Positions 27,327-64,000 of a stretch of 64,000 bases of DNA are shown piece after piece (positions within the stretch are counted from its first letter, which is position 1; the number at the start of each line of letters is the position of its first letter). The stretch comes from Schmidtea nova (Eukaryota). A model generated the notes under the pieces. It had not been told where the DNA came from. It saw nothing but the letters and a program-made list of their open reading frames with translations, and made no database searches. The stretch lies in NCBI GenBank assembly GCA_044892505.1, contig CM097884.1, forward strand, positions 95,976,001 through 96,040,000, given 5' to 3'. A program made the position numbers and the translations under genes.

Positions 27327-27574
27327 TTTTATTAAATTGTAAATCAAGAATCAAAATAATAATAAAATTAGACATGGTAAGTCAAAATTCAAAAAAATTA
27401 CTACTTCCCAATCGAACGAAACAAAATCAAAAAACCCACATTAATCTTTAAACCAAATAGTCCAGTTAAACAATTCAATAAAAAGTCACTTTTAAATCAA
27501 ACAACCCCAAAATGATTGATAAAAAAATAGATCAGTAAAACAACAACTGATCAAGTATCAAAGTTTTTTCTTCA

Positions 27575-28097: not shown

Positions 28098-28509
28098 TTT
28101 CAGGTTTCATATAAGATTTATAAAGATTTCGATAAGACCGTCTAACGGCTTCCGGCTTCCAGGCTCGCTCCACCATCTCTCACAGTAATCAAGCCCCACA
28201 ATTAATTATTTTAGATATTATTTAATTATTTTTAAAAACATTTTAAAAGCGGGCGCGACCAACAGTACTAGGAGGACTGGTATTTTTTCATGGTACGTAA
28301 CCGGCACAGGATGAAGAGAAAGGTTTTTTTTATCCAAAATACTGCTAATATTATGGGTAATGTCTTATATATTTTGATCGAAATTTTTACTATCAAGTAC
28401 AGTGGCTGAAGGCTTAAAACTCGTTGAAGAGGAGAAACCGCTTCAATACATAGAAATGCACACAGAATAAAAGCAAACTTTGATGTGTAAATTATGGATG
28501 AAAACTAAA

Positions 28510-28640
28510 TGCAAATACAGAACTGGCTGGAAAATACCGAAAATGGATTGCAAACGAATTGTGATTCTTGGTGGTACTGGAATTGTAAAAACCAATTTTG
28601 CATTATCACACTTTGATGATCCCTGTTATGTGATCAAATT
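28510..28640 (+). pseudogene. CRESS-virus-like Rep SF3 helicase relic (Walker A region)
   Basis: GWKIPKMDCKRIVILGGTGIVKTNFALSHFDDP aligns by eye with HIFVGSSGIGKTNFALPHFKKP at 57285. Confidence 0.7.
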
Positions 28641-29314
28641 AATATTGTAGTTATTATTTTTTGTTGTTACTGTTATATTTTTTATTTATTAGCTATACCT
28701 TTTTATTCCCGCCTCCTACTCCCTAATTCTTGTCATCGCATGGTCGTTTATTCCATATAGTAAGTACTTTGCCAACTTACTATAGGGAATTCAAAAATTA
28801 AAAATCAATAAAAAGTCAAAATTACAATTAAAAATCCTACTCGGGAAAGCCTGAAAAAAGGGAATAAATTCCGAAGCAAGAGACTACAATAATTATATTA
28901 AAAAGCAATTATAAGAAGAATCTTACAAATAAAATACGCGTATAAAAGTCGACATAGTCACGATAGAAAATAATTAGAAGATAAAATTACTACAGATAAC
29001 TTCAAATCCAAGAGCAAAGCTCGAACCGACAATTGTCTAGTGATTTCAATCCATCCACATTCCATCCACTCCAATCTATCTACAAAGTATTATTTAATAT
29101 TAACGATCCGATACGACAGTGAGTATCCAATTTTCAGTTTTTGTTGTGGTTCGATAAATAAAATTGTATAAAGTTATTATTTAATATTTTGTTATTAATT
29201 GTTAGCAATCAAAACAACAACATACACCGGCACGCAGTCACCCGCATTACATACTCAACACAATATTCACCCCAGCTGTCCCAAAACAGATTTTTATCGG
29301 AGACTCGGCTGAGC

Positions 29315-29448
29315 NNNNNNNNNNNNNNNNNNNNNNNNNNNNNNNNNNNNNNNNNNNNNNNNNNNNNNNNNNNNNNNNNNNNNNNNNNNNNNNNNNNNNN
29401 NNNNNNNNNNNNNNNNNNNNNNNNNNNNNNNNNNNNNNNNNNNNNNNN
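29315..29448. other. Assembly gap (N run)
   Basis: Run of N. Confidence 1.
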
Positions 29449-29800
29449 AGTATAACTTTCCCAATAATCTCCTTCATGTCACAATTAGACAGGATTTCGA
29501 CAAAATGGGACCCGAGAAATACAAGTATGATGGAGTCGTAATAGATTATGTTGCACTATCAATATGGGACGCAGAGGAAGTGATAAACCTTTGTGGTAGA
29601 AATATGATGCCAGTATTAATGTGAAATACGGAACTGGAGTCATAACGAGTAATAATTTGTTGCAAAAGTTTAACAGACATAATTAATTCAAATTGGAATG
29701 CGAAGCGTATCGCAGGTATCGACAGAAAATATTCTATCTTTAATTTAGGAGATGACCCATTATATGAATTTGATAATACAGATAAAGATAATAGTGATAT
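29449..29800 (+). pseudogene. CRESS-virus-like Rep SF3 helicase relic (Walker B region)
   Basis: YDGVVIDYVALSIWDAEEVINLC then, after a frameshift, YDASINVKYGT; parallels CDGEVFNDL...FLSLID*TYENAVNIEY at 57400. Confidence 0.6.
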
Positions 29801-31199
29801 TGGACAACAATACTATGTTTTGCAGAAGAACGGAGATTTCAAGAAAATGTATAATTAATCAGATTTTACATTATTCTTTGGATTATCTACCTTTAAATTT
29901 ATTGGAATCGAATTTGTAAAGAGAATTTGTTATTTGTCAAATAAAATTTTAATTTTTTGGGTTTTGATTTGTTAAGGACACGAGTAGTTAGAACCAAAAT
30001 TAATTCTTGCCGAAACTCTAATGAAAATAGATGATATTAAAATAACTTAATTGTATAAAATTAGTAATTAATTTTTATAGCAGCACGAAATATAGAAAAT
30101 GTTAAAATAAAAAAAGTAATTACTCATATAATTTTTTATTAATAAACATTATCTCATGTTGCAAAAAAAGTTGTACTGGTAATATAATTAGCGTATAATT
30201 GGTTAAATTACTATCACTATTTCCATTTAAAAAATTTATTTTAAAAAATTTGATTTAAATATTTATATACTAGTTGTATATAAAGCCGAATTTTTTTAAA
30301 TTTATTTTTAAAAAAAGATTGAGCTCAAAAGCAAATATTGACGTGTATCACATATCGACAAGAATTAAAATGTCTTAGGGAAAGTCAGTTGCACGATAAA
30401 ACATTACACTACAAGACTACCATTAAAGACAAACACCATCTTTTATAAGGAGGACCTCGTCGAAGAGCAACTATCCAACACTGAAGTGGGTACTGTAAGC
30501 ATAGTAGAGGGGTATTCACAGCGATTTAGGCAAGCCTTAATATTTAGCGATTCATATTTCATTTCTGTAGTAAAAAATTTCAAATTTGATTCTTGATTGA
30601 AGGCATTAAGTAATTTTGAAAACTTATTGAGTGCATCGTGGATTTTAATTTATTTTTCTACTTTAGTGGCTTTGGTCAATTTATGACTATTATTTTACTA
30701 AAATACTCGTGAACAATCATAGACGTATAATTTTAAAAGTAAGTTGTTTGTTTATAAATTAATATGTTAATTAAGGTTTTAACATAAAGAATAGCAGTGA
30801 TCAACTTTTAATTAAAAAAGTATTTGCATTATTATAATATTTAAATAAATAGTTTTTGTCTAAATTTGAATTAAGAAGAGTTAAGTTTGAAATTTGGATT
30901 GAATAAACTTTTGTATTTTTATGCCATCTTTTTTAGGTCTAATTATAATATTTATTTTGATTCAAACATTTATCTATCAACGCTCAATAAAATTTTATCG
31001 GAAAATAAATATTCTACATCCATACAAATTTACCTTTGCATCAAAAGGAATTATTCCGAGCGCCAAAGCACTGACAAAACATTATATTTTGCTAATATTG
31101 CAATTTATGATAATGAATAGATTAAAAAACTTTAAATCTGCATTTAAAACTTAAGAAAAACTTTAAATTTCTTTTTCTTTTTACCAACAGTAATTTTAT

Positions 31200-38075: not shown

Positions 38076-38491
38076 TTGCTAAAATTATTGAATTTTAATT
38101 TATGTTAATTTTAGAATTTGAAACTATGATCGAGGTTGGGTATCCAAAGGATATCGTCTCAATCAATAGTTGTATAAATAAAAATATTTAATTAATTACC
38201 TATCTATTTGAATTTGAAAAATTCGGACTTTAAAAAAAATTTGAAATTCAATGAGTTTTTGAAATTTTAAATCTAACGGTTTAACCCTTATCCTATATAC
38301 CCTCTTAAATTTCCTTCCCCTATTCAATTTCCTCTTTTTATCCAATCAAATTCATTTGCCAAGCGATCCTTGAAAGCAGTTTTACACCAAAAATAAAAAG
38401 TGTTCCATAAAATGTAATGTTATCAATGAATAAATAAATAATAAATTCTACACTACTGTTACTTATATTGCATGCAGAAATCATTGTCTTA

Positions 38492-44158: not shown

Positions 44159-45450
44159 AAATCGTAGCTTACCCCCAACACTTACGGGTAACTCATTTGT
44201 GCATTTTTCATATTTTGCAATTTTTACAGCGATTTCCTTACATTTGTAACTATATAATGCTTCTCAAAAAATTCTCGCAAATACGCCATTTTCCGATATC
44301 AGCATAGGGGCTACTAAGTTCGGGTTTGTGACTGCCATTGCCATTCGATTCCGAAGAATGTCTTTATTCAATTTACAATCATTAAGAATCATTTCTCTAT
44401 AAACATTCTCCATGATGTCTTGACTAAAATGAAATAAATAATCGATTTTGTTATTGAAATAATGCGTTAATTTAATGTCGTTTACATGAATTTTAGTTTT
44501 TGCGTCTTCAACTATTCCTTTTGAAACATAGACGCCTTTATAATTTGTTGTATATAATATTCGCCCACATTTATTCGTAACTTCCTTTTTTATAAAACGC
44601 ATGCTATCCGTTGGCGATGTTGACATCAGAACTGCACTCATTTTCCTGGTCATTATTGGAGTTGATTTAATTGCTTCTTTTGATTTATAATTCATGCTAA
44701 AACTATCGGGTCTTTCCTGAAATTGTTCTCCGATTATTTCTTTAAAATTCATAGTTTTTAGAAAAGCCAAATTACATTCATTTACCTTTACATTATAAAC
44801 TAAAATCGACTCTCCTGTTTGACAATTTGTCTGTTTCATATTACAGAATGGATGTGTCTGTAATTTTCCCGTATCGTCATCAAATGCTCCTTCGAACTCT
44901 CTAAGTTCCGTAACGTACTCCTCAAATACTACCGTTTTATCCACCATTTTACCATTCATTTTATACGGTTCGCCTTCGCAATCTCCATTTGCTTTCATTA
45001 TCCCTTTCACAACTACTGTCTCTCGTATTCTGTGATTTAATTTAGCTTTCAATCGGATTTCCGAACTTATTTTTAATTCTCCTGTTTGAAATGCTGTCAA
45101 ACAATTTTCTGGAAAAATCTCAACTGGTCTCGGTATTGCATTTACTTTTATTAATGACGAGTGGCTCCACTTTCCACAATAAAACACAAACGTTGTATGT
45201 TTCACGCTACACTCTCTAACTTTAGTTCGTCGTAAATCTGATTCTTGATATACGTGGTATTTTACATCATTTTCAACTTTTAATTTACTCGGATAGGCAT
45301 CTGGGCATTCTGACATATCTACTACTGAATAAATTTTTCCCATTTCCGTTTGGGAGCAATCATATGCAACTAATGACGTCGCTTGTGCAATAACTGTACA
45401 CAGGATAATCATTGTAAACATCAACCATGGGAATATTCCTATTCTCTTCG
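43560..45450 (-). CDS. env: Envelope fusion glycoprotein, Chuviridae G-like (class III-like), with one in-frame TGA at 44264-44266
   Basis: Signal peptide then LVAYDC; YCG..SH; G.CEG..Y; YFNNKIDY; C..N...L.N.MA...P; ARIF[*]EALYSYKC...C.NELPV...FMEPITRIL; GLYASEDI; WGKFMFLGQACAGLIGIY TM; GWSWK. Confidence 0.85.
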
Positions 45451-47647: not shown

Positions 47648-48577
47648 TCACTTTGGACTTCTCTGCATGTTCTCGTTGAACCAACATTGATTACTAGTAT
47701 GACCCATCTTTTGACAATTATTGCATTGAATTGGAGTTGGGCTTCTTTGGGATCTGTTTTTGAGCCAACATTGATTCACATGATGTCCCATTCTTTGACA
47801 ATGGCTGCATTGTATTGGCATTTCTTTCTCCTCCCTTGGAGCATTAGTTGTTTGACTTGATTGGAATTTGGCTTTGAATTTTGGCGAAGGACTGCTATAT
47901 TGTTGAAATCTGTTGTTCTTCTCAGGAGTTACTGATCGTTCTTGTTTTTGTTCCATCATTGCAAACGATTCTGAATTTGATTGTGTACTTTTCAAATTAA
48001 GCTCAATTTTCATGGCCTTTTTGATTAATTCATCGAAGTTGTTGAAATCGACATAGCATAAAGCCTTTTTGATTTCCTTTTTAACTCCCGATAAAAATTG
48101 ATCTTGCAACAGTTCCCTTACTTGCTTTGCCACTTCTGGTTGATCGGGTTTGGTTTCGAAAGCTTTTTCTGCAAGAGTCGTTAGATGATAAGCAAATTCA
48201 CTTACAGATTCATCAGATTTTTGCATTCGATTGTAAAATTTTTGGCGCATAATCCTTTTGATATCTCCTCCGATCAATTTAGCGGCTAATGAATCTTTAA
48301 GTCTCATCCAGTCATTTCCGATTGTCCTTTTGTCAATTTGTTGCCATACTTCTCTGGCTGCTCCCTTTAAATACAAGGGCAATCTTTGTATCATCGTGGC
48401 TTGGCTCCATCCATACGCATTGGCATACATATAATAGTCTGCCATGAAATCGACAAATTCAACTGGATCTCCTCCATATTGGTTAACTGGTAGCTTTTGA
48501 CAATTAGCGAGATCATTGCCATTTCCTGCGTGACTTGTCGACATCGGCGCTTCATCATTACTATTTGAATTGCTCAT
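47648..48577 (-). CDS. gag: Gag (capsid domain plus 2 CCHC zinc knuckles), 309 aa
   Basis: LPLYLKGAAREVW, FYNRMQKSDESVSEFAYHL, DQFLSG; CSHCQRMGHHVNQC and CNNCQKMGHTSNQC; its TGA is followed immediately by an in-frame ATG. Confidence 0.95.
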   Translation of the reverse strand: MSNSNSNDEAPMSTSHAGNGNDLANCQKLPVNQYGGDPVEFVDFMADYYMYANAYGWSQATMIQRLPLYLKGAAREVWQQIDKRTIGNDWMRLKDSLAAKLIGGDIKRIMRQKFYNRMQKSDESVSEFAYHLTTLAEKAFETKPDQPEVAKQVRELLQDQFLSGVKKEIKKALCYVDFNNFDELIKKAMKIELNLKSTQSNSESFAMMEQKQERSVTPEKNNRFQQYSSPSPKFKAKFQSSQTTNAPREEKEMPIQCSHCQRMGHHVNQCWLKNRSQRSPTPIQCNNCQKMGHTSNQCWFNENMQRSPK

Positions 48578-48946
48578 ATTATTCTGATATTTCGTTTGGC
48601 TTCTTAATTGATAAAATGGTCGAGTTGGTAACGTTTTCTCTCGTCTAAATTTTAAAATATCAATTATTAAATTTACCCTTTATTCGTCTTTGTTTTCTCA
48701 AACTTCAATTTTCACTTTTTCACGATTCAACTTTTATTCACACAAAAATTTCCAATTTATTTCTAGCAATCAATTTATTTTCACAATTCTTTTTCAACTT
48801 TTTTAATATTTTCAATTTATTTTCAATGCTTTCAGTTTCAAATTTCTCTCAATATATCCACTCTATTCACTAACGATATCACCGATTTTCACACCTTTTA
48901 TTGTAATTTATTCAATTAATTCTCCACCAATTCTTCACCGACTTTG

Positions 48947-48964
48947 ATCACGTCGGGCTCACCA
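48947..48964 (-). promoter_or_regulatory. 18-nt primer-binding site, tRNA-Trp-like
   Basis: TGGTGAGCCCGACGTGAT, 3 nt from the 5' LTR; one mismatch to the common metazoan tRNA-Trp end ATCACGTCGGGGTCACCA. Confidence 0.85.
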
Positions 48965-48967
48965 AAA

Positions 48968-49835
48968 TGTTGGGTATTTGTTTAAAGTCGGTTCTAATTT
49001 CTGACTCCTGGTGTTCTTTTAACAAATAACTGACCCAACACAATAACTTTTATTTCAATATCACAATTTATCACAACGATTGCACAATATAAGAACTGTC
49101 TTTTACACTTAACTTGAACTGCTTTCAAGTCACTTGCTGCGAGGGATAAGTCTCCCGAAGGAAGATCTCCCTTTCTGGTGCGCAAACAAATGAATTACGT
49201 TTTACTCTACGACACTACCTTTTCTGACTCTTCTTCTAATTTCAATCTGTTTGCTGAAATTTTATCTCTTCGACCAACTGGCGACACATTGCAATTTGCT
49301 TCTGTTTTTATATTGCTCCCTCCTTAATGCTTGCTTGTTCTGCCTCCCAATTTGACATTTGAATCCGCGATTCAAATTAAACTGTCATATTGTAATTTAG
49401 TAGCTCTCGCCGTTTCCATATCCTTCAAATTAACTGTCATAGTGTAATTTAGTAGCTCTCGCCGTTTCCACATCCTTGGAGCAAATTGAACTGTCACTTT
49501 GCTTGAGCGGGTTTCTCTCATCTCTCGGGCTCTCCATTGGCTCGGGCTTCCCATTGTCTCGGGCTTTCCATTAGCCAATTAATTCTTAATTAATATTTTA
49601 ATTTTTTAATTATTTCTTTCTGGGGACCCCCCATCGATTTTATTTTTTATTTATTTGAATTCGTCTCATAATTTGGCACACACCCATACCAATTTCCCCC
49701 ATGATATATTGATTTTAAATTTTATTAATTTTTTAATTAATGTTTTAATATTTTAATTAATTTGGTGATTTTTGCAATTTTACTAATTTTATTTAATTAC
49801 TTTTAAATTTTGAGTCACTTTGACAAACCCCAACA
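48968..49835 (-). repeat. 5' LTR (868 bp)
   Basis: Near-identical to 34156-35023. Confidence 0.97.
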
Positions 49836-50099
49836 CTACTTTCACCCGTACGGCTCAAAGCCTGAACAGATGTCAGAGGGTATGGAAGTGGTTTTAATGA
49901 AATACATAAAAAATATAAATATATACATGATAAATAACAATAAAATGATATTAGTAACTGAGAAAATGTGACGAAATTTAATAAAAATTTGAATATAAAA
50001 AATTATAATTTTCATAAAATAATACATAAAATATCATATAGTACACATAGCCTAAGGTTAAAATAAGGAAAAATACCTAGACCGCGTAGCGAGGACATG

Positions 50100-50937
50100 A
50101 TTTCGCGGGTCTTTATAATTAGGAAACAAAAATCAAGTTTCTTACGAATAATTCGATTCACGATCATAAATTATCTTCTTTCGTAATATTCTGGTAGAGT
50201 CACACTGGTATATTAGTAGTAAGAGATTCTTTGTTAAAATTTCCTTGCTAAAAACCTCAAAATTTTTAGCAACAAAATTTCCTCCGCAAATTTTTGCAAA
50301 ATAGCATTAAAAATTCTCCATTTTGATGTCGGTATTTATACAAATTTTCTGCATTTTTATTTCCATTGAGGTATTAAAACAAATCATTCTAGAAGGTGAT
50401 TCTAATTTTCTTGAAATTAATTTCAACAATTTTCCGCAAAACTAAATTAATAATTTTACATCAAATTTTCATAAAACTTTAAATAATTTCTTTTTAATCC
50501 AAAATTTTACTTTTGAAAAAAAGTTTATTCTAATTTGATTTAATTTGTTGCATTTTCGATCAAAATTATTTTCTTTTATATTTTAACGAATTTTTAAGAT
50601 AAAATCGCAATCTTCCTTCTAAAAACATGATAAATTTCCACCACTGAGGTTTTACAACGTAAATGCGTTCTCCAGGAGCATATTCAATGTGTTTTTCGCC
50701 TATGCTAGCTATTTAAATGTTCTTCTTTTAACCAATTTTTGTTCTACTTGATGTTTTGGTTTATGGGCCTGTAGATTAGAACTTCGCGCGTTCTCTACCT
50801 GTTAGTGTGCTTTGCCCGCTTTAATATTTAGGTGTGTTTTCACTTAACTACTTCGGTTTTACTTGATGTTTTGGTTAAATCTCTACTTGTGGTGTTACTG
50901 CTTCATTTAAACAATTTGCAGTTTTGGCCCAACACAG
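50100..50937 (+). repeat. Repeat family C copy 2
   Basis: Homologous blocks with 14410-15175. Confidence 0.55.
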
Positions 50938-53289
50938 GTGTGATATTAAATTTTTATTTATATTGATAGTTTTAAAAGATTGCCAGTACTTGAAAAAAAG
51001 ACCTTTTGAAGTTAAAGAGAAAAAATCATTGCTATAATTTATTCTTTATGCACAATCTGTTGCGGTAATTGTAACTTCAAAAATTATTTAAAACCCTACG
51101 ATTGAGTAAATAAAATTTCAGTACGACTGAAGATTATGAAGATGGTGGTAAAACATCAGAAAATCGATGACTTATCATGTATAATCTCATTGTTGTTTGA
51201 CGTCCCGATATTCTTAGTCTTCGAACACTTGCCAGACAAAGACAAGCTTAGGCGAAATGGGAAAGCTTATCCAGAATATGAAATGAAGAGTAAATGTCTG
51301 AAAAAATGGTGACAAATAGATGAACACCTACAATTATTGGATTTGCAGCAGCATGTAAGTATAAAACTTTCGAATTTCCAGAAAGTTAAATATTAAATCA
51401 AGATTGATGTAATCAGTCACATCGCAGACATTAAAATATTACCGGTGCAGGCTAAAGAATTTGGTAAACCCTGTCTCGAAGAATATCTGGCTGACGGCAA
51501 AGAGTCAAACGATGATTGGCAGTCGCAAAGGCTATTAAGTAATCGAAGAAGGCCTCTGTATCTTGATCAATACGAGCTGGAGAATTCGTACAGGTCAACG
51601 AGCAATGTGATATTAGATTTTTGTTTATATTTACAGTTCTAAACGATTTTCAGTAATTCAAAGAAAGATCGTCAAGTTTTTCAAAAGAAATAAATTAATG
51701 TTATAATGCTATGATAAAGATGACAAAACCTAACTAGCTCTTAACTTAAAAAGAATAAAAAAGAAGAAATATGAAAGATTTATTAACATCAACATTTTTT
51801 AAAACAGCTGATTCAAATAATTCTCCTGCTATGAATCCAATAAAAAACAAATCACAATCTCACTAAAATAAAGAGACCAAACAGATGCAGACATTATACG
51901 ACTGAAGAAACTCAAACAGGAACTGAAATTTTTATGATATAGAAATATATAAAATAAAATTTTTCAGAAAAACTAATTATTGAATGCAGATCTAAATTTA
52001 TTAGACGTGCTACACTTCTATCAAAGGGGCATATGCCTAAAGAAACATCAATAGAAACAGAGGCTTCAATGATAAGTAGAAATTAAGATAATTAAACATC
52101 AAAAAAAAATATTGTTAGGTGCACATGTGTTGGACGATGAGGGTAAACCAATAGACACATTTGTCCTATCGAAATACTACAGGACAGGGTCGGATTCATA
52201 CCGAGTGAATATAAACTCGGAAAAGTAAACAACCAAAAAACACCATCCATCAGTAATCTCTCATCAACCCTGCTAATTTGGATATATACTCGGAATAGCC
52301 ATCAAACATCAATATTATTCAATTTATCCTCAGTCAATCCCTTCGATCAATTCTAGTGCAAATAAACAATAATCTGACAATATTATGTGATTTATTAATT
52401 ATTATGACAATATGTATTTTATTTTTATTTTTATTATGTATATTTTATTGTAAATTATTAATTCATTAATTTTAATTATGTACTTTATTTTTATTTTATT
52501 TTTTGAGGTACGAATTATTGTGTAAATATTGGAAAAAAACATTAGAAATGAATTATTGTGTAAATATTGGTAAAAAAGCAAATAAAACAAACAGTTGAAT
52601 TATTTGAACATATGAGCATTAATAAATTTCACCAATAAAATAAATAAAAATATTTAATTAAACACATGAGCATTACAGAAAAATTAGTATATGAACATTC
52701 ACCACAATTTGATTTCACAAATTTTTGCGACTTATCAAATTGAATTGTCTTAGGGTAATCCTAAACAATTGTCAAACATTTAAGGAGCAGATTCATAAAG
52801 CTCAACAAGGGGACTTTTTGCATGCACTACATAGCATTCACCCATTAGGATACACAACATTGATTACATTCATACAAAAAAACAAAATTATTTGTCTGGA
52901 AATTGAATTCAAGAAAGTTATTTGTAATTGGACATTTATTGATTGATTGTAAAAATTGATTGTATTATAAATAAACTTAATTGAAGACTTTGGGCTTATT
53001 TATTTATATAAGAGCACACCCACGTAGGTTGGAGTTTCAAATAGAAATATTTGAGACCTCAACACATGCACTTTGAAACATTAAACGGGGATTTATCTTT
53101 CGTAATATTATATGTTGATAGATACGAAGAATCAAGCTAACATGGAATTTCTTGTGAAAATTGATTTAACTATAGAAATTCAGCTAATATTAACATACAG
53201 TAAATTATTAGTGTCGTGTTGTAATTTATAGTAGATAAAATTATAAAGCTTGCAATAAATAATTTACATTTCAGAACCCGCTGGATTAG

Positions 53290-53741
53290 ATATTTAAAAA
53301 ATTTTCTAGAAATATTTAAAATATTTTCTAGAAATATAGTTGACAATAATAGTTGACAATTTTACTATTAAAAGGTCAGCCAATTCACGTATAGATGATA
53401 TTTTTGATATTTCATCGTGTAGCATTGACTTTACCATAACCATTTGCAGCGGAAATTCAGTTGTTATATCTTCACTATATTTTCTCTGAATGGCTTCTGC
53501 ACTGCTTATGATCTCACGTTCTTTCATTACCATTAATTTATTTGGATGGATGCAGGAAAATAATTGTACCACTTCTTGCATTCCTTTAAATCTATTGTCG
53601 AGTTGGGGCCCACTAGACCTGCGGAAAAGAGTTTTATAGCATAAATATTATTGATAATATAATTTTTTTTATATGAGGGCCCCCTATAGCTGGTAGGCCC
53701 CCCCGCAACGCAGGGTCCTGCGTCCAGTAGTTCCGCCACTG
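53290..53741 (-). mobile_element. hAT (ZMYM1-like) relic with one terminus
   Basis: Terminus CAGTGGCGGA at 53741 with a GC-rich subterminal hairpin; transposase fragment KYSEDITTEFPLQM...SIRELADLL. Confidence 0.65.
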
Positions 53742-54038
53742 TATTGAATAGATAAGTTCGATTTCATAACAATAATAAAAGATATAACACAAGATTTATC
53801 AAATTCGATTGGATAAATATCGCATTAAGGTTTAAAAAAGATGAAAATGTGAAACAATTTCAAATGAAAATGTTTTTTATTAAAAATGTATATATGAAAT
53901 TATAAAAAATTATAATTTCAAAATGACTTAAATAATTACATAAGGTCTTATTTAATAAGTATAAATTCTGCTATTAATAATAACAAATTAACTTTAATTT
54001 TATAAATAAATTTTATTTGTTATTAATTCATTACTTAC

Positions 54039-54218
54039 AGCATTTGTGCCCGCTACACTAGAAACATTCACAATTGATCCTTTTGTATTAATCAAAGATG
54101 GCGATAGTAAATTGGTCAGTTGTATGATCGATCTTAAATTCATGTTCATTACAGAATCAAAGTTTTCCAATACAACATTTTCAATATTATCATTAGATAT
54201 AATACCGGCATTATTAAC
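54039..54218 (-). CDS. Single 180-nt exon of a short-chain dehydrogenase/reductase
   Basis: VNNAGI...FDSVMNMNLRS...TKGSIVNVSSVAG; AG acceptor (54219-54220) and GTAAGT donor; no stops. Confidence 0.85.
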
Positions 54219-54776
54219 CTAAATTAAATTGTTTTTAAATTGTATTTAAAAGATAAATACGTAAGTATGCTACTTTAATAATAAAAATGTACTCATTTAA
54301 TGTTCTTTCTTATTGTGAAACTATATAAGAAAATGGTAAATTTAATGTGCAAACATTGAAAAGTATTATCAACAAATTCAGTAGTGTATTAAGTTAAATA
54401 TTGATGTCATTAGTATCGTATTGTCATTTGATTAATTTTAGTTCTTTCAATCATTTTGAAGTATCTAAAGTATCCTTTTTATTACTGCCACTATTTTAAA
54501 CTTTTGTCAATTTTGAACGACCCCAAACTGAAGTAAGCATTAAAATTTAAGATTTTGGATTGTTCAGATCCCTGAAGTTGTATAGTTTTTTTAGCGAGAA
54601 GAAAGTATTAAAGACGAAAAATTTAATAGAGCACTTGAAATCTGCTCGAAGAAATGTAGCAAAATTCAAAAACTTCGATATATAAAATAATGAAAAAGTT
54701 ATTGATTTTACAAAACTAGAATGTAAATTGAAGCTAGCAAATTGAAAAATCAAATGATATTGAAATTTTTTATTAA

Positions 54777-56224
54777 CCCTTTGGCAGACAACGACGTGTT
54801 TATTGCGTCATGTGGTGGTTTTTTGTAGGACATGACGTGATATCACGTCAATATTTGCAAACGCAATAAAGCCATGACATCATGTCATTGACATGATATA
54901 ATGTCTTTGTTTTTATATGTTTACTTAGGAATTCAACATATTGTGTGTCCCATTAGAAGACATATAAGCAAAATGTGTGTCCCGTCAGAAATATTTATAA
55001 AGTATATTGTTTAACGTGAACATGTTTGGTCGTGAAATTCTTTGATATCACCATGACGTGATATGCCATCACAGATCCATATGAAAATTATTAATTATGC
55101 GACAAGTGTTCAACAAATAACATATTTTTGTGTTAGTCGTGAAAAACGTATTTTTAATTATTTTTATGTTTAAATTGATTTTATTTAAATTTATAAATAT
55201 CTAATATAATATAGATATAAATAAAAAATAACTAATTTACATTTATGAATAATAAAAAATTATAGAAATGGACCAATATGAAAAACAGAGACAAAATTTT
55301 AAAACTTTTTGAGGATGTTGGTGATGATTTGGATGAATCTGATATATCTGAAGCTGATGCATTCAGCGCAGGAAGTGAAGTGGACCCAAATTATGTACCG
55401 GAAGAAACTTCTGATGAAGATGATGATGATGAAAATATTCAAAATGGTGGAGCCGTTGTCCTTGATGTAGTTGTCATTCCAAATTTTAATTTTGACCATA
55501 CAACTGCAGGAATTCAGATACCAATTGAAGATAATGCCACACCGGTAGAAATATTCGAAAAGTAAATTACATCACAAATATTGTCAATGTTGGTACATTC
55601 AACTAATGAGTACGGGTCAAAAATATGCAAGACAGATAAACCTAAGTTAAGATATTCGAGAATGGCTGTTTTAACCCAGTTGATACTATTGAAATGAAGA
55701 AATTTTTTTGTCTATGTTTTCTACAAGGCCAAATCAAAACACAGAAGATTAGACATTTATTTTCATCAAATCCATTATACCATCATCCAATTTTTTCAAA
55801 AACAATACCTGGAAGGTGGTTTGAGCATATTCTGCGTTGTTTCAATATATTTCTGAATGGGGAGAAATATAAATGTAAAAATACCAACAAATTATTAAAT
55901 ATGTTGTGTCAGAACTTCAGAAAGATTAATAGTCCTGGTGAATGTTTGACTTTGGATGAATTCTTATTATTGTTCAAAGGTCGTCTTCGTTTTGAACAAT
56001 ATATACCATGCAAACAAGAACGATATGAAATTAAATTTTTTGAACTTTGTGATCTTAATGAATATGTTTATAGTATTGAAATGTATCAAGGAAGGTTTGT
56101 AGAAATTGACAACTCACAAAATGTTTCTTTATTTAAAATATATAGTATTGTTATGAAATTAATGAGCAATTTGTTACACAAAGGACATATATTATTTATG
56201 GATAATTTCTACAATAGTTTTTGA
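54777..56224 (+). mobile_element. piggyBac transposon, 3'-truncated and degenerate
   Basis: TTAA then CCCTTTGGC left end; acidic N-terminus; TLDEFLLLFKGRLRFEQYIP and FMDNFYNS (PGBD4-like); right TIR not found. Confidence 0.85.
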
Positions 56225-56240
56225 TATTGAAGGTATATTA

Positions 56241-56813
56241 TTGTTATATATAATTATTATTTACTTAAATTTTTTAGAAATTTTATACCATATAGACTAT
56301 TCTGAATCATGGAGTCAAATGACATTTCATGCATTAACTTGGGTGAAAACACCACACAGCGAATATATAAAGGATCTAATCAAGGGTCCACATATGCAAA
56401 TAATGCTAGACGACTTGGAGGTACTAGTAGACAGCGATCGCCCTACTTCGACGATGAGCCTATTTGTTATAAAGGAAGCGAATACAATATTCCTTCCCCA
56501 ATGCTTTAAGATGTTTTGCCCTCTTTGCGAGATCATAATGTTGTTAACCGAATATGTGTTCCTGCAATATTATGTTCGAAATCTGCACCCAGATGTACAA
56601 AAGAACGACGCATTGATGTTGGCGGCGATAATAACTCGATTACAATACACACTGATCAGGGGTCCGAAAAGAATAACGAAATTAGAAAACTTGATAGAAT
56701 CGGCCAAAGAAAATTTAACAGTTTTGCATTTCAAGTGTCTAAAAGAAAGTTTCTTGAACTGGAAGAACAGCTACTCACACTGGCTAAAGACACTAAATGA
56801 AGCAGATTCTTGA
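56241..56813 (+). CDS. ORF of unknown function overlapping the Rep N-terminal frame
   Basis: 190 stop-free codons in a frame different from Rep; its first ~12 codons lie in an intron-like GT...AG segment (about 56233-56276). Confidence 0.4.
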   Translation: MLYIIIIYLNFLEILYHIDYSESWSQMTFHALTWVKTPHSEYIKDLIKGPHMQIMLDDLEVLVDSDRPTSTMSLFVIKEANTIFLPQCFKMFCPLCEIIMLLTEYVFLQYYVRNLHPDVQKNDALMLAAIITRLQYTLIRGPKRITKLENLIESAKENLTVLHFKCLKESFLNWKNSYSHWLKTLNEADS

Positions 56814-57672
56814 TCGGACAGGAAAAAAAGGGTGCAGGTGGATTTGAACATAAGCAAATGTATTGGGAGGTAAGAAATTTTTAAATTGTAATTGTTTATT
56901 TCAATTTGAAAATTTAATTACAGATTTACAACAACATGTCCGTATTTGCCTTTAGGGAGAAGACTCACCTACCCTACATACGAGGAATATCTGGCGTTGA
57001 CAGACCTGCCACTCTTGCATACGCAACCAAATCAGAGACCAGAGTTCCCGGAGGAATCGCCATCCGAATAGGTAAGCCCAGTAAGTTTGGTTCTACTTCT
57101 AAAAACAGTTGTAATTTTAAAAGAGCTCTTGAAGCTCCAATAATGTCTGATGCGATAAAAATACTAGAAACTAGCGAATCTTTCCATTTTATCACTAAGC
57201 GCAAAACAATAATGGAGTCGCTAATACACCATTTCGGTGAATTTTCAAAGGAATTTATCGATTTACTCGATTGGAGGAGTCATATATTTGTTGGTTCAAG
57301 TGGGATTGGAAAGACAAATTTTGCTCTTCCACATTTTAAGAAGCCTGTACATGTAAAGCATCTACAAATGTTAAATATAATAACTTCCAATCGTGAACAA
57401 TGTGATGGTGAAGTATTCAATGATCTTTATTTTAATAAGGCTAGAATCGAAGAATTTTTATCGCTAATCGATTGAACTTATGAAAATGCGGTTAACATAG
57501 AGTATTCTGTTGCGATTGTATCAAAAGGCCTTCCCAGAAATTTTTGTGTTAATAATATTGATTTGTTTTATCCGGAAAACGTTACCAGTACTGTTATGGA
57601 AGCTATTAAACGATGTATAAACATACATAAATTTCATGGACAGAGTTTTAAATCATTTTTATCTGAAAAAGT
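56309..57672 (+). pseudogene. rep: CRESS-DNA-virus-like Rep (HUH endonuclease plus SF3 helicase), 3 in-frame stops, one 54-nt intron
   Basis: Motif I-like FAFQV (56723); motif II GQEK..GGFEHKQMY (56849); motif III YATKSETR (57020); Walker A GSSGIGKT; Walker B VFND; motif C FCVN; intron 56870-56923 GTAAGA...TTACAG. Confidence 0.8.
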
Positions 57673-57959
57673 ATAAAAGAAATATATTACTAATAATAAT
57701 ATATTTTTATTTAGACAATGAAGCCTCCGTACCAGAAGAAGAATTGGAGCAAAAAAGCAAATGTCAATTTATTAGTATTAGATGTGAAAAATGTAATAAG
57801 ATTAATCGGTTATTCATAGGAGTTTTGTAAAAATTAATTTTAGTAAAAAATAAAATAGTATTATTTATTTGAAATATTTATGAATTACACTAAAAGATCA
57901 TATTTAACATCGTTTAATATCTTTACATTACCAAATATATCCAAAGTACTATTAAACAC

Positions 57960-58530
57960 GTAAGGATTTTCACATTTGACATATAAACTGCGATTCCTTA
58001 ATGGCTGTTGATGTTCACTAGCGTATTTCTATATCGGATGATTGTTAGAAATTATACATTGAACACTTGGCAGATTTGCCTTTGAATTATTTTTACGAGA
58101 TACTCTTAAAAAGATATTTCCTTCACACATGAGTTTTATTAAATTAACATTTTTATAATCACAATATATTTCTTCTACTATTATCATCTGTTTAGCTACT
58201 AAATCATCAAAACAGAATTCACTTTGACATTGAGCACCTGTAAAAAATCCATGAGTCCAGTCGCCTCAACATATTGCTGTAAATAGATACTTTCCCGCAT
58301 TGCTACATCCTTCTAAAATAATGGTTTTGGTCTTTCCTGCTTGAGAAGTGAGTATCATATATATATCCCAAGCATACGACGTATATAGCTTTTATCTTTC
58401 TCATTAATATAGATACCATAATTAGAAATAATTCCATCAATTTATCGAGCGTGATCAAAGTTAAAATGAAAATCGTTAACGCGAACAAAATTCTCCATAA
58501 AATTTGATAATTCATTGTATAATAATAAAT
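57960..58530 (-). pseudogene. Parvovirus/densovirus NS1-like SF3 helicase relic
   Basis: KTKTIILEGCSNAGK; EFCFDDLVAKQMIIVEE (compare parvoviral NFPFNDCVDKMVIWWEE); IISNNHPI; LRNRS; multiple frameshifts. Confidence 0.7.
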
Positions 58531-58997
58531 CATTCATCTACAAATAATTAACTAAGTAATGTTTTGATGACTCATTTATAATATTTTTATATAAAGTAAA
58601 GTAACCTAACTGTAGAGACTTGACAAAGTTACTTTACTTTAATTAAATATGTTTAATCCCACGAAGTCTGTTACGAGGGGTGGGCTTTGAATTTAGACTT
58701 GGGGGGTAAGGGGGGACACCTACAGTTCAAGTACTATGCTCGATGTGAGCGGATCTATACGTAGTGCGCAAAACGATTTTACAGAAAATTTTAGAAACTC
58801 AACCAGTTCTAAGAAGCAACGTGCGAATAAGCTGTACCAATGGAACTCAAATACAAAGTCACGGTAAAATTTTGTTGTAAGTATAAAGTGGTGCTGAAAC
58901 TGTCAACCAATTTTCTGAAATAAATAATATATTTCCAAATATTTACATAGGATTACGACATATGAAAAGAAATGGTATTGTTATTAATCTTGTTCAC

Positions 58998-60380
58998 CAG
59001 CGGTCCTTAAACATTTTACTTCACGGACCACCGAATAAAGTTTCGATTAAACAAAAACTAAAATATTTATTTGATTCAATTTAAATAAAAAAAATTGATC
59101 TTTTTAAGAAAATATAAGTATATAAATTAAATCTATTTAATAATATAATGCTACTGATCTCTTAAATATAGTTTCACATTTCTAGAGTTATAATTAATAA
59201 CATGATTATAATAATAATGATTATTTAATGAGATGTCAATTTATTAATATCAGGTAAAATGCTTGATAATTGAATTCGAGATTCTGTTTCTACATTTAAT
59301 AATCTATTTCTATATTTATTTTTTAAATATACTAGTGCTGAAAATGCTTTTTCATATAAATATGTAGAAGGAAACGGCATTAAAATTTGTAATGCAATTT
59401 CTGATAAATAAGGATGATCTATACGTAAAGCCAGAAATTGGCAGTAGTATTTTCATTAAATTTAATTTTCAATGAATTATCATTAGAAATGACTATTAGT
59501 GAGTTTTTCTTGAACTGATATTAAACCATATTTTATCAATGTTGGTGTTAAATGGATATTTATTCCACAATTTCGTGCAATCTGGAATTGGAAAATATTC
59601 ACGAAAAGTCCATTGCATATCCTTCAGATGTTGGATGATGCATCAGATAAATTTTCATTGGGTGTATTAAGGAAAGGGTTCCAGAATTATACAGCAAAAC
59701 TTGAATCATCAAATTCCCAAAACTCAAAATCTGTTCCAAATTTAATTGAGAGACATCCGAATAAACCAAAGCAAAATTCCAGAATAATTCGATATAACCC
59801 AAAATTCGATTGCCAAAGATATCACTCCTTCCCACTAAGCCAAATTCAAAATACCACGAAAATTCAATTTCGAAATTGGATTGAACAAACAAAACCAGAT
59901 TTTAGAACAATCAATTCCAAAATCAAGAATTAATTCATATCACCTCCAAATTCCATATCAAACAATACACTGCGCACACAGACGCGAGACCACAATGAAA
60001 TTCAATGCGCATACAGACGCATACAAGACCACACATATTGCACACAAACAGCTGAAAACAATCAAATTTCGCACACAGACGCATCCGACATAAATGATAA
60101 AAATAATAAGGCGCACACATCGGCCGAAATAAGTGGTATGGATCAAACTGTGGCAAAATAATATGTCTCTAAATTTTGTGTTAGAAATCATACCTAACGG
60201 AACATGATAACCACGACTTATTATTACAGTCTGTACTTTTATCTAACTGTAAACTGTAATATTGGGATTTTAGAATTCGGTCTATTAATTGGTTTTTTAT
60301 TTTACCAGAAATGTAATCAATTCGTTTTTTTGTATTATTAGATAAAGCCACTAAATTTAATTCTTTTGCAGCATTTTCCC
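58998..60380 (-). mobile_element. Buster-type hAT relic interrupted by an unclassified repeat (about 59600-60180)
   Basis: LSNNTKKRI...YYSLQLDKSTD at 60200-60350; LSEIALQILMPFPSTYLYEKAFSAL at 59330-59420; TIR-like CAGCGGTCCTTAAAC near 58998. Confidence 0.7.
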
Positions 60381-60480
60381 CCGAGTGTCCCAACATTAAA
60401 TCGGAGACTCTCTCGGGCTCTTAAATAATTTCCTCTCATACACAAAAATACAAAAGAAATAACATTTTTTAACGAAAGTA
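60370..60480 (-). repeat. Repeat family A copy 4 (partial)
   Basis: CCCGAGTGTC...GACTCTCTCGGGCTC hairpin at 60380-60420. Confidence 0.55.
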
Positions 60481-61309
60481 ACCATACATAAATCGACAAA
60501 AAAAAACATAACAGTATAGAAATACATTTTATCTCGGAAACGTCCAACAGACTTTAAACTAAATTGTACAGCATTATTATGGCCTGCGTGCGAAAAACAA
60601 TGCTAAAACATTACGGAAATGCAGGTTATTGTGCCACAGACAGTGACTCTGACAGATGCCAGAGTATTTTATTCTGAGTGAAATTGTTGACGAGAGAGGT
60701 TTAAAGTGACATGTAAATGTGCCAAATTGTTTTTTATTGTAAATAAACAATATGGCGAAATGATAACTGATTGTTGGTGATTGTTAGACAAAAGTGGAAA
60801 AACTTACATGTTAGAAGCAAATTAGATTATATTGAAGGTGATTTCAACATTGATGTAGAGCGTGATAAAAAACAACACATAATGTTGGCAAAGCAAATAA
60901 ATAAAGAAGCTAAACCCGTTGAAAAAATATTAGAAAATTAAAAGAACGACGTTGATACAACGTATTCTTCATAAGAAAGATAGGCTTTTTTAAAAAAATC
61001 GGTAAATCATTTGATGAAAAACATATAGCCTTTAAACCCGGACGTATTCTAAAAGGTATTGAAGTAGAAAAAGGAAACTAGTTGAAATAGATGCTGGAAT
61101 CACGAATAATATTGCCTAGTAGATTGCAGTGGAATTTTCCAGTTCTAGGGGTAAAAAATAAAAATGGAGATATAAGAATACGCATTGATTACTGAGCGTT
61201 AAATACAAAAACAACTAGACTATTTGGGATATGTGCAGCATCCACGTCATTTCAGAACATTGTGACAATTTTTTTGCAAAATGATAACTGGAAGTCTTGT
61301 ATAATCCAT

Positions 61310-62045
61310 GGTGAGGGTTAGAATAGTCGAATATGGAAGCCAAAAAAATAGTCGCCAAAGAAAAAAAGCTTTAATTGGTTAAAATCGTCGCCAATGTTGA
61401 AACCCGAAAAAATTGTCGAAACTGTAGTACAAAAAAATAGCCGACAATATCGAATCCTAAAATAGTCGAAAAATTAGGGGCCAAAAATAATACAATTTTT
61501 TTAGAAGGGTTTTAGTTAACTGGGAGATAGCATTAATTATTACTGTAATAGGTAGTAAATATTCTAAATGTATTTATAATTAAACTACCGGGGGGAGTTT
61601 TTTTTGTCAAAAATTAGTGTTATGAACTCAGACCGTTGTTTAAATGCCACACAAATAATAATTTTCCAATTACAAATACAAAACTTTGTGAGGGTTAGAA
61701 TAGTCGAATATGGAAGCCAAAAAAATAGTCGCCAAATTAATAAACATAATTAAAACAGGACAGAATGAATATTAATTAATACTATATATATATATATATA
61801 CTATAATTAATGAAATTATTTACATAATGTGAAAAAACATAAAGTTATTTATTTTATTAACTTATTCCCAAAATTTATTTGAATTAAATTGTCGACGATT
61901 TTTTTGGGATTCTTATATCAAGTCATCGACTAATTTTTTGGCATTTGTTGGATGTCGGTTATTCTTTTGGGTTTGCAGTCGGCTAATTTTTCGCGATCTG
62001 TCGACTCTTTTTTGACTTCCATATTCGACTATTCTGACTTTTACC
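61310..62045. mobile_element. Non-autonomous TIR DNA element with ATAGTCG-like subterminal repeats
   Basis: ~40-bp imperfect TIR GG..AGAATAGTCGAATATGGAAG; internal direct copy near 61690; TSD-like TAATCCAT / TAGTCCAT. Confidence 0.7.
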
Positions 62046-62059
62046 TAGTCCATCTAGAT

Positions 62060-62110
62060 CAGAGGTTCTCAACCAGGAGTACGCATGTTAAAAAAGGTTG
62101 AGAACCCCTG
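62060..62110. mobile_element. 51-bp minimal hAT (Buster-type) element
   Basis: 15-bp TIR CAGAGGTTCTCAACC / GGTTGAGAACCCCTG; 8-bp TSD ATCTAGAT (62052-62059, 62111-62118). Confidence 0.9.
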
Positions 62111-62129
62111 ATCTAGATGATGTTTTGAT

Positions 62130-62900
62130 ATTTGAAAATCGTTAGAATATAATCAAAGCATCAATCATTTTATCTAAAATAAAGGAAGCAGGTTTGCGCC
62201 GGATAAATGCATTTTTATCAAAAAAATAAAGTACTTGGGTAATATTATTAGAGTTGCTGATATTAAAGTAGACCCGGGCAAAATTCTGTCAATAAGAAAA
62301 ATCAAAATTCTTAAATATATTCAGGAGTTACAAACGTTTCTTGGAATGTGCACATATTACAGACAGTTTATCAAAGATTATGCTAAATATGCGCAACCAC
62401 TATAAAAGATGTTGAGAATAGAAAACTAGTTTGTATGGAATACATAAAATGAAGAGGAAAAATTATTCTGAGTTTACCAGTGAAGATTTTTTTCAATGTA
62501 GATACTTCTTACGATTGCATTGGAGTAGTACTCTCTGAAATTTAAAATGGAAAAGAAAAAAATAATACTGTATGACTCAAAATGAATGGAAAAAGTCCAA
62601 TGCAAATATTGCATAAATCAAAAATAACTATTGATTATCTATACAATTCGTCTAAAATACAAACATTTTCTTTTGGTAGAAAATTTGTCGTTCGAACTGA
62701 TCATCAAGCATTAAAGTGGTTTTTAAACTGGGAATCTCCAAATACTTCACAATTGTGTTTTTGGAAATCAGAATAAGAAGTTTATGACTTTGAAATTCAA
62801 TACCGAATAGGAAACGAACATCTAAACACAAATGGACTGTAGAGACTACCATAATGTGAATAATGTCAATTATTGCACTTTAAACCACAAAAGAAGAGTA
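62130..62900 (+). pseudogene. Old Gypsy pol relic (RT thumb and RNase H)
   Basis: QTFLGMCTYYRQFIKDYAKYAQPL; GRKFVVRTDHQALKWF; YDFEIQYR; many disruptions. Confidence 0.85.
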
Positions 62901-64000
62901 ATGTAAAAATCTACAATGAATCATATTCAAGATCCTAGTCAAATTCAGACAGCCTTGCGTACATTGATGAAGTAGGGAATTAAAAGATTTGGAGAAATAG
63001 ATAAAATAATATAATATCTGAAGTGATAGGAAAACACACATAGTTTAGGACAGAACTGGTTTTTCGAATTAAAACACCTTTGGATGTAAATTACACATTC
63101 GCTGATTTATTTCAATAGCAGCGGAAGTTAGATATGAAGGAAATCCAAATAAAGCTTTTAGAAAACATCCAAAGCAATCAAGAGATTCAAAAGTTAATTT
63201 ATGATAAAGGAAGAATATATGATGAGATTAAAATCGGTGATTTGATATTGATTCGTAGAGAATATAATGTTGGGTTATAAAATCCGTAAAAATAGGATTA
63301 AATATTAAATATAAAAAATAATAAAAAGGTAAGTAGGAAATAAAAGAATTTTAATCAACAAAAGAAAAATAAAATGATAAATAAAATAAAAATGAATGAA
63401 TGGAAATATGAAATATATAATTAATGAGAATTCAAAAGAACAATTATCTACAAGAACCCTTCGAATTAAAAATTAGATGAAAAATAAAAACAAATTTATA
63501 ATAATTCAGAAAAATTATTGGACGAATAAGAAAACGAAAGAAAATAATTGGCCGAAAACTTAAATTTTAATTGGATGAATTTTTTCAATTCATCCAATCA
63601 GTTACGTGGACAAGTGAACGCTGATTGGCTGAAAAAATAGTATAAAAGGAATAGCCAATTTTTTTTCAAACTAACTTTTTTTCTTTTACGTTAACACTAT
63701 TTAATTAACTTTAACTCCTTTACGAGTCCGTAATTGTGAAGCAAAAGACCTTTGTAGTAGAAAAACTTTGTATCTGTGCTGAAAATATACATTGTAACAA
63801 GTAATTTTGTTTATTTTAATTATTGTTATTTCATGCAATCTTGGGAAATTTTTATTGCGAAAAATTATTGTTCATCAAAGATAATGTTAGCTAAATGTTT
63901 CTTTGGGCTGATGATCTTCGGTGGCTCGAATCATTGGTTCCGTAGAGGTGGAAAGGAGAGCTTAAGCTATAAGTAAAGTAGTAAACTAAATTTATGGGGT

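What the first reader, a model, noticed from the sequence alone, without database searches (positions are those of the whole stretch)
56309..57830. CRESS-like Rep with a small spliceosomal-type intron inside the endonuclease domain
A 54-nt AT-rich GTAAGA...TTACAG segment containing a stop separates motif II from motif III. Removing it gives YWE-IYNNMSVF and restores normal spacing. A second candidate intron (about 57667-57714) precedes a CxxC-containing tail. Spliced Reps are known in mastreviruses and genomoviruses, usually at other positions. This may be an undescribed animal-infecting ssDNA virus or a Rep-based transposon.
Basis: partly seen in the sequence, partly recalled or inferred. Interest (0 to 1): 0.72.

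Follow-up and report, generated by a model that had tools for sequence, protein, structure and literature searches.

The report
Intron-split fossil of planarian virus-like element
This is a decayed, genome-integrated relative of a little-studied flatworm virus-like DNA element, and its replication gene is split by a short intron inside the DNA-cutting domain, which suggests that this group of elements splices its replication gene.

Summary
The Rep and the 54-nt intron (56870-56923) are real. Read through, the segment is an 18-residue insertion absent from 19 of 19 aligned homologues that span the site. It is 85% AT, GTAAG..CAG-bounded and holds two stops. The gene is a pseudogene: three more stops, a deletion, a decayed Walker B.

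A parvovirus-NS1-type helicase gene lies tail to tail with the Rep, a second frame is overprinted on its 5' part, and a truncated piggyBac abuts it. The Rep groups with the Rep of the planarian element PEVE (Q910M2), for which a CRESS-type Rep plus an NS1-type helicase is the described gene pair. A second PEVE-like Rep remnant and a Burro-like retroelement in the window point to a planarian host.

Three relatives show signs of an intron at another site, just before motif II. The annotated PEVE Rep starts at that site and lacks motif I, so it is probably spliced too (inference).

The second intron is 57671-57714; its phase does not lead into the CxxC frame. No capsid, terminal repeats or canonical origin were found. 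Verdict: new variant of a known, neglected kind.

The parts
56309..56869 (+). Rep exon 1: about 130-codon N-terminal extension, then HUH motif I region (56723) and motif II (His 56849, HxQ type); stops at 56507 and 56798
56870..56923 (+). 54-nt phase-0 GT-AG intron between motifs II and III; 85% AT; two in-frame stops
56924..57670 (+). Rep exon 2: motif III YxxK (Tyr 57020), oligomerisation region, SF3 helicase (Walker A Lys 57311, Walker B about 57419-57424, decayed); stop at 57473; about 10-codon deletion
57671..57714 (+). Second candidate intron, 44 nt, 91% AT, phase 0; no homologue test possible
57715..57830 (+). Putative last exon; two open frames (ending 57819 and 57830, the latter with CxxC); true frame unresolved
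56278..56813 (+). Stop-free 177-codon frame overprinted (+1) on Rep exon 1; no Pfam or PDB match
   Evidence: 0 of 20000 Rep-codon shuffles leave it open; over 56309-56700 both frames are more open than chance, 11 and 57 of 20000
56233..56277 (+). Candidate 45-nt GT-AG intron (91% AT) in front of the overprinted frame; may belong to the element or to the piggyBac
   Evidence: inference
57849..57869 (.). Back-to-back AATAAA signals (+ 57849, - 57869) between the convergent genes; AT-rich, so weak alone
57885..58537 (-). Decayed parvovirus-NS1-type SF3 helicase gene, convergent with the Rep; stops at 58444, 58268, 58031 and a frame break in an (AT)n run near 58370; no HUH domain detected
   Evidence: Parvo_NS1 E 6.8e-10, above cut-off; AAV2 Rep40 E 0.007
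58592..58641 (.). 14-bp perfect stem upstream of the NS1-type gene; candidate origin or terminal hairpin; no canonical nonamer
   Evidence: z -3.8 and -4.35 on a stretch chosen after seeing it; 2 of 200 block shuffles give a stem of 13 bp or more; one of 4 non-microsatellite stems of 12 bp or more in the window
54773..56224 (+). Neighbour: piggyBac left end (TTAA then CCC, 54773-54787) and 5' part of its transposase (55266-56224, frameshifted); 3' part and right end not in the window
   Evidence: DDE_Tnp_1_7 E 9.5e-35
28381..29804 (+). Second, different decayed Rep remnant in two pieces (28381-28632, 29472-29804) split by about 840 nt that include an N gap; best match PEVE Rep
   Evidence: HMM iE 2.8e-14 and 2e-7; 36% and 38% identity to P0020, top hit for both pieces among 152 homologues

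Best explanation
The locus (about 56.2-59.1 kb) is one dead, integrated copy of a PEVE/PIVE-like ssDNA virus-like replicon, probably in a planarian. In the active element, host RNA polymerase II transcribed two convergent genes. One was a spliced Rep mRNA: the host spliceosome removed the 54-nt intron, bringing motif II and motif III to their working distance, so that the Y1 HUH nuclease could nick the origin and the SF3 domain could unwind DNA for rolling-circle or rolling-hairpin replication. The other was a stand-alone NS1/Rep40-type helicase. The unspliced mRNA stops inside the intron, so splicing also gated Rep output and left the overprinted 5' frame, which ends before the intron, translatable. 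After integration the copy decayed neutrally. Shown: domains, intron anatomy, decay, gene adjacency, kinship to the PEVE Rep. Inferred: splicing, single-element status, host, replication mode and the regulatory role.
For: Intron. Rep identity. P0020 is 100% identical over 272 columns to Q910M2, the PEVE type 2 Rep. The query sits in a 7-row group (94/91) with P0020 next to it (89/69), inside an 11-row group (98/98). With the query, P0013, P0028 and three distant rows left out, P0020 still joins the query's nearest relatives at 96/91. The NS1-type gene ends 55 nt from the Rep's last open frame. Liu et al. 2011 place the PEVE small-segment protein and PIVE_1p with parvoviral NS1, and list the PEVE large-segment protein and PIVE_3p apart from them (PMC3198968). 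A second PEVE-like Rep and a Gag-Bcl2-Env-Pol retroelement with the planarian Burro order (PMC6431247) lie in the window. Relatives P0003, P0004 and P0152 carry non-homologous sequence ending at one shared site just before motif II.
Against: No RNA evidence. The query and P0020 are long branches (1.78, 1.95) and only 28% identical; support for their joint group with the query included is below the starred level. The NS1-type protein could not be compared with the PEVE small-segment protein, and its one homologue search was run in the wrong frame. No terminal inverted repeats, capsid or canonical nonamer stem-loop were found. The relatives' introns rest on protein sequence only. P0005 and P0006 show no insertion at either site. 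The element's left boundary against the piggyBac is undefined.
Confidence: 0.7

Rival explanations
1. Two independent insertions side by side: an ordinary capsid-encoding CRESS virus Rep (capsid gene lost) and a separate parvovirus-like NS1 fragment, in a repeat-rich region.
For: The window is dense in decayed elements and holds another Rep remnant with no NS1 beside it. No shared termini were found. Eight Reps, most labelled as unclassified CRESS viruses, rank above PEVE in Foldseek.
Against: Only one significant NS1-type gene occurs in 64 kb (tblastn), and it ends 55 nt from the Rep with paired poly(A) signals between them. The only named element in the Rep's close group, PEVE, is known for this gene pair.
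Confidence: 0.15
2. A Teratorn-like fusion: a piggyBac transposon that carries the Rep and NS1-type genes and moves them by DDE transposition.
For: The piggyBac left end and transposase lie on the same strand directly upstream, and a GT-AG segment (56233-56277) links the end of the transposase frame to the overprinted frame. Precedents: Teratorn (PMC6431247) and a fungal Rep-plus-transposase element with TIRs (PMC3198968).
Against: The transposase match stops at profile position 219 of 349, so its 3' part is absent. No right end in the window (2 matches at up to 3 mismatches against 1.4 expected) and no 3' part downstream. A deletion joining two dead elements explains this equally well.
Confidence: 0.08
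3. The 54-nt segment is not an intron of the element but a later AT-rich insertion in the dead copy, or a coding GRS-like insert as in gemini- and genomoviruses.
For: The copy is decayed and the genome is rich in insertions. The GRS motif lies between motifs II and III in gemini- and genomoviruses (PMC5399927). No relative shows an insertion at this same site.
Against: Consensus AG|GTAAG donor and TTACAG acceptor, whose removal gives the relatives' spacing exactly (chance about 0.002). Two stops and 85% AT exclude coding. Motif II is HxQ, not HxH. Two more short AT-rich GT-AG segments flank the gene.
Confidence: 0.05
4. A non-viral Rep transposon (Replitron or Helitron type) or a domesticated host gene.
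For: Introns, no capsid, chromosomal location; the Replitron-1 gene has two introns (PMC10288648).
Against: Replitrons lack a helicase, and Helitrons have a Y2 Rep with an SF1B helicase; this protein is Y1 with an SF3 helicase. Stops and substituted invariant residues exclude a working host gene.
Confidence: 0.02

Closest known systems
[quoted passage not shown]
   Same: Rep in the same group; same 39-residue motif II-III spacing once the segment is discounted; a second, NS1-type SF3 helicase; probable planarian host.
   Different: Only 28% Rep identity; intron between motifs II and III, where the PEVE Rep has no insertion; no terminal inverted repeats seen; integrated and decayed. PEVE's two segments and repeat layout are recalled, not read (paper not held).
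Unnamed Reps P0002, P0003, P0004, P0005, P0028, P0152 (P0003, P0004, P0152 from Logan contigs of 3.0-4.3 kb)
   Same: Nearest relatives (30-34% identity over exon 2 for the five listed); shared helicase signature; signs of introns in the nuclease domain in three of six.
   Different: Their inferred intron lies before motif II, not after it; their DNA and neighbours could not be read.
Spliced Reps of Mastrevirus, Becurtovirus, Capulavirus, Grablovirus and Genomoviridae; porcine circovirus Rep intron
   Same: Rep mRNA spliced by the host; two separate intron origins already proposed (10.1101/687855). Intron-marked Reps are also listed for some cycloviruses and unclassified arthropod CRESS genomes (PMC6186406 Table 3).
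   Different: HxQ motif II and nano/circovirus-like nuclease here; different lineage. That the gemini/genomovirus intron lies downstream of the nuclease domain is recalled, not read.
Parvoviridae NS1 / AAV Rep40
   Same: The second gene matches Parvo_NS1 and, weakly, AAV Rep40; an overprinted 5' frame as with densovirus NS1/NS2 (recalled).
   Different: No HUH domain or capsid detected for the NS1-type gene; the nuclease is on the CRESS-type Rep.
Teratorn (piggyBac-herpesvirus fusion)
   Same: piggyBac transposase next to viral replication genes.
   Different: Transposase truncated, only one piggyBac end present; fusion not shown.

Membership tests
CRESS-type Rep (HUH Y1 + SF3) | Motifs I, II and III (YxxK, single Tyr) | tested here: met
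   Aligned to homologue columns; motif II is HxQ with an atypical middle residue, motif I is divergent
CRESS-type Rep (HUH Y1 + SF3) | Fused SF3 helicase with Walker A, B and motif C | tested here: met
   PCV2 ATPase domain Z 10.4, rmsd 3.0 over 119 residues; Walker B decayed
CRESS-type Rep (HUH Y1 + SF3) | HUH nuclease fold | tested here: met
   FBNYV Rep nuclease Z 12.4, rmsd 2.3, 95 aligned
CRESS DNA virus (Cressdnaviricota) | Capsid gene | tested here: inconclusive
   No capsid family in six-frame Pfam scans of 48700-55300 and 58400-64000; decayed DNA and an unassigned overprinted frame leave it open
CRESS DNA virus (Cressdnaviricota) | Nonanucleotide in a stem-loop origin | tested here: inconclusive
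   21 loose nonamer matches in 54700-59300, best stem 7 bp; the one at 57856 does not fold better than shuffles (z 0.5); the hairpin at 58592-58641 has no canonical nonamer
CRESS DNA virus (Cressdnaviricota) | Circular ssDNA genome | not testable with these tools
   Integrated copy only; viral and metagenome contig collections closed
PEVE/PIVE | Rep related to the PEVE Rep | tested here: met
   E 9e-27, 28%; trees; identity of P0020
PEVE/PIVE | Second, parvovirus-NS1-type helicase | tested here: met
   Parvo_NS1 E 6.8e-10; direct comparison with the PEVE small-segment protein not possible
PEVE/PIVE | Flanking inverted repeats | tested here: inconclusive
   None above AT-rich background in 54600-59500; the left end may be deleted
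PEVE/PIVE | Planarian host | tested here: inconclusive
   Indirect: Burro-type domain order, second PEVE-like Rep
PEVE/PIVE | Extrachromosomal form | not testable with these tools
   Needs DNA from the animal
Geminiviridae / Genomoviridae Rep | HxH motif II and GRS motif | tested here: not met
   HxQ; the stretch between motifs II and III is non-coding (definition)
Replitron | Y1 Rep without helicase | tested here: not met
   SF3 helicase present (definition)
Helitron | Y2 Rep fused to SF1B helicase | tested here: not met
   Y1 and SF3 (definition)
Teratorn-like piggyBac-virus fusion | Complete transposase and paired TIRs around the viral genes | tested here: inconclusive
   Left end and 5' transposase only; no right end within the window
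Spliceosomal (U2-type) intron | GT-AG ends, AT-rich body, removal restores homology | tested here: met
Spliceosomal (U2-type) intron | Spliced transcript | not testable with these tools
   No RNA data

The most novel reading that the evidence does not exclude
PEVE-like replicons form a flatworm lineage of two-helicase, possibly capsid-less ssDNA elements whose Rep genes gained spliceosomal introns several times at different sites inside the HUH domain, independently of gemini-, genomo- and circoviruses; and this copy belongs to a family that fused with a piggyBac transposase (an ssDNA counterpart of Teratorn), with a splice linking the transposase to the overprinted frame. The intron half alone has a probability of about 0.6; the piggyBac fusion is the unlikely half.
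Probability: 0.08. Interest if true: 0.8.

Novelty: new variant of a known kind. Interest (0 to 1): 0.5.

Why it matters
PEVE has stayed an orphan since 2002: only 2-4 papers per search in the held library mention it. This locus ties it to a wider group of Reps and shows the Rep plus NS1-helicase pair in one integrated stretch. It gives a cheap test: the annotated PEVE Rep lacks motif I and starts where three relatives appear to end an intron, so an upstream exon should exist. If so, Rep introns arose at least a third time in CRESS evolution (two origins in 10.1101/687855), at two sites within one small group and inside the catalytic domain. ORF-based mining would then truncate or miss these Reps; the window's own Rep has no Pfam hit. 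The copy itself is dead and has no evident function.

Tried and rejected
Pfam and PHROGs gave no family for the window's Rep. phmmer against PDB, tblastn against phages and the word-indexed homologue search gave nothing significant; only the full phmmer search reached relatives. P0003 against plasmids: no match. P0024 against phages: 1 weak record. GTDB scans: 0 of 193 and 1 of 17 candidate stretches confirmed; the one locus (L001, 976 nt) is a helicase fragment with no bearing on the intron. The homologue search for the NS1-type gene was sent in the wrong frame and is void, so its relatives are unchecked. The ESM Atlas gave no result for any query. Names and sources of the cluster members could not be looked up. 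A weak NS1 match at 59766-59563 (E 0.059) lies in low-complexity DNA and was dismissed. TAGTATTAT at 57856 was dismissed as an origin. The idea that the frames after 56277 or the CxxC tail continue the piggyBac transposase found no Pfam support in the frames scanned. The tail-frame test was inconclusive. The first tree run did not finish. 15 of 153 short rows were left out of the FastTree run; the IQ-TREE runs used 30 and 24 hand-picked rows. The original PEVE paper is not held; Repbase reports were not seen.

Full report
Observation. The segment 56870-56923 is as described: 54 nt, GTAAGA to TTACAG, 85% AT, phase 0 in the Rep frame. It holds two in-frame stops. I read the frame through with X at stops and searched 1.84 billion representatives: 500 proteins at E<=0.001, best 8.5e-38. 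Of the 30 hits scanned, 20 carry Viral_Rep or Gemini_AL1_M. A profile built from the 150 listed hits alone scores the query at 3e-63 across nuclease and helicase.

In a 21-row alignment all 19 homologues that span the site lack exactly 18 residues. The distance from the motif II His to the motif III Tyr is 57 with the segment and 39 without it. The 120 of 150 homologues with both residues in register span 36-53, and P0003-P0006 all have 39. Among 45 possible starts only one 54-nt segment has GT..AG ends. The chance of GTRAG..YAG ends by window background is about 0.002, and none of 1200 coding 54-mers reaches this AT content. The AlphaFold model is confident on both sides (pLDDT 86-95) and not over the segment (63, 47). 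It matches FBNYV and circovirus Rep nucleases (Z 11-12) and the PCV2 ATPase (Z 10.4). Splicing itself is inferred.

Corrections. The gene is dead: stops at 56507, 56798 and 57473, about 10 codons missing, and 4 of 18 nearly invariant columns changed, Walker B among them. The second candidate intron is 57671-57714 (44 nt). Its phase leads to a frame other than the CxxC one, and neither tail resembles relatives' tails above chance.

Surroundings. On the minus strand, 58537-57885 encodes a decayed parvovirus-NS1-type SF3 helicase (Parvo_NS1 E 6.8e-10; AAV Rep40 E 0.007). It ends 55 nt from the Rep's last open frame, with AATAAA on each strand between them. A stop-free frame of 177 codons (56280-56810) is overprinted on Rep exon 1; both frames are more open than codon shuffles allow, and it has no Pfam or PDB match. 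A 14-bp hairpin lies upstream of the NS1-type gene; I picked it after seeing it, so its z-score is optimistic, and 2 of 200 shuffles give a comparable stem. Directly upstream of the Rep are a piggyBac left end and the 5' part of its transposase, without a right end or 3' part in the window. No capsid or terminal repeat was found.

Identity. [quoted passage not shown] Hit P0020 has the same length; folded and searched, it is 100% identical to Q910M2. In IQ-TREE the query lies in a 7-row group (94/91) with P0020 next to it (89/69), inside an 11-row group (98/98). Both are long branches. With the query, P0013, P0028 and three distant rows removed, P0020 still joins the five nearest relatives at 96/91. 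FastTree on 138 of 153 rows gave the same 7-row group at 99, with P0020 in the enclosing 14-row group. Pairwise identity is only 28%. Liu et al. (PMC3198968; section 8 and supplement part 13 read) group the PEVE small-segment protein and PIVE_1p with parvoviral NS1, and list the large-segment protein and PIVE_3p separately. That PEVE encodes a circovirus-like Rep plus a second helicase in about 7.5 kb with inverted repeats is recalled from Rebrikov 2002, which is not held. The window holds a second, different Rep remnant at 28381-29804 whose best match is P0020 (36-38%). It also holds a Ty3 element with Gag, Bcl-2, a mononegaviral fusion glycoprotein and Pol in one frame, the order described for planarian Burro (PMC6431247 passages). 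A planarian host is likely but indirect.

Introns in the group. P0003 has its own 17-residue insertion just before motif II; its end residues are compatible with a read-through 51-nt GT-AG intron. P0004 and P0152 begin with non-homologous sequence ending at the same point. The PEVE Rep begins seven residues before the motif II His and has no motif I. I infer an intron at this second site in these relatives and in PEVE. This rests on proteins alone; their DNA was out of reach. P0005 and P0006 show no insertion at either site, and none of the relatives has one at the query's site. P0002 and P0028 start downstream of both sites and say nothing on position.

Mechanism. Most likely a PEVE-like replicon with two convergent Pol II genes. 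Splicing of the Rep mRNA builds the Y1 HUH active site, the Rep nicks an origin and unwinds DNA, and the NS1/Rep40-type protein is a second motor. Unspliced RNA would stop in the intron and yield only the overprinted protein, whose frame ends at 56813. The copy integrated, lost its ends and decayed. Rivals: two separate insertions (0.15), piggyBac fusion (0.08), non-intron insertion or GRS (0.05), Rep transposon or host gene (0.02).

Comparison and novelty. It works like a CRESS Rep and passes those tests. It fails the gemini/genomovirus, Replitron and Helitron tests (definitions from passages of PMC5399927 and PMC10288648; motif definitions from passages of PMC6668415). Membership of Cressdnaviricota as a virus is open (no capsid, no origin). 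Spliced Reps are known: Zhao et al. propose one origin for gemini/genomoviruses and another for circoviruses (10.1101/687855, abstract and passages), and Table 3 of PMC6186406 marks introns in cycloviruses and unclassified genomes without positions (section 10 read). So an intron in a Rep is not new in itself. Nine answered searches (one search failed) turned up no report of introns in PEVE/PIVE-type Reps, and PMC3198968 has no occurrence of 'intron' in its main text. The two Rebrikov papers, the Repbase reports and bioRxiv supplements were not seen and could hold such a note. I also saw single passages of PMC9241645, 10.1101/551184 and 10.1101/001727, which only cite or list PEVE.

Verdict. 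A real intron in a real but dead Rep, part of a new, distant variant of the PEVE/PIVE kind. Interest 0.5: not a new class, but it reopens an orphan element with a direct, cheap prediction.

Noticed in passing
window 36669-48679, minus strand: Near-intact Ty3/gypsy element with Gag, CCHC knuckles, Bcl-2 domain, Monjiviricetes-type fusion glycoprotein and PR-RT-RH-IN in one frame broken by two single stops, plus a downstream 469-aa ORF without a clear Pfam match; a compact relative of planarian Burro.
   Followed up: partly
window 28381-29804, plus strand: Second PEVE-like Rep remnant, closer to the PEVE Rep than the focal gene; split by about 840 nt with an N gap.
   Followed up: partly
window 28100 to about 27400, minus strand: Decayed acidic, Asn-rich frame divergent from the second Rep remnant across a partly GC-rich spacer (28140-28270); no Pfam match; may be a partner gene.
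   Followed up: partly
window 26997-27350, minus strand: Proteasome alpha-subunit fragment directly after that frame; host gene or processed copy.
   Followed up: no
window 54000-54218, minus strand: Short-chain dehydrogenase exon with GT-AG ends; the piggyBac begins about 550 nt away and may sit in or beside this host gene.
   Followed up: no
window 58640-59050: GC-rich G-run region and short, partly open frames on both strands next to the hairpin; no Pfam match; may be the element's promoter or a further gene.
   Followed up: partly
window 59150-60600, minus strand: hAT-like transposase fragments (weak, E 0.038) interrupted by a low-complexity repeat at about 59460-60170.
   Followed up: no
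window 61300-62119: Small element with 38-42-nt inverted arms and internal repeats, followed by a 24-nt-armed hairpin at 62051-62119; MITE-like.
   Followed up: no
window 16558-16615: 25-bp perfect hairpin with an 8-nt loop.
   Followed up: no
P0020 (= Q910M2): The annotated PEVE Rep lacks motif I and starts at the inferred intron site of P0003, P0004 and P0152; its annotation may miss a first exon.
   Followed up: partly
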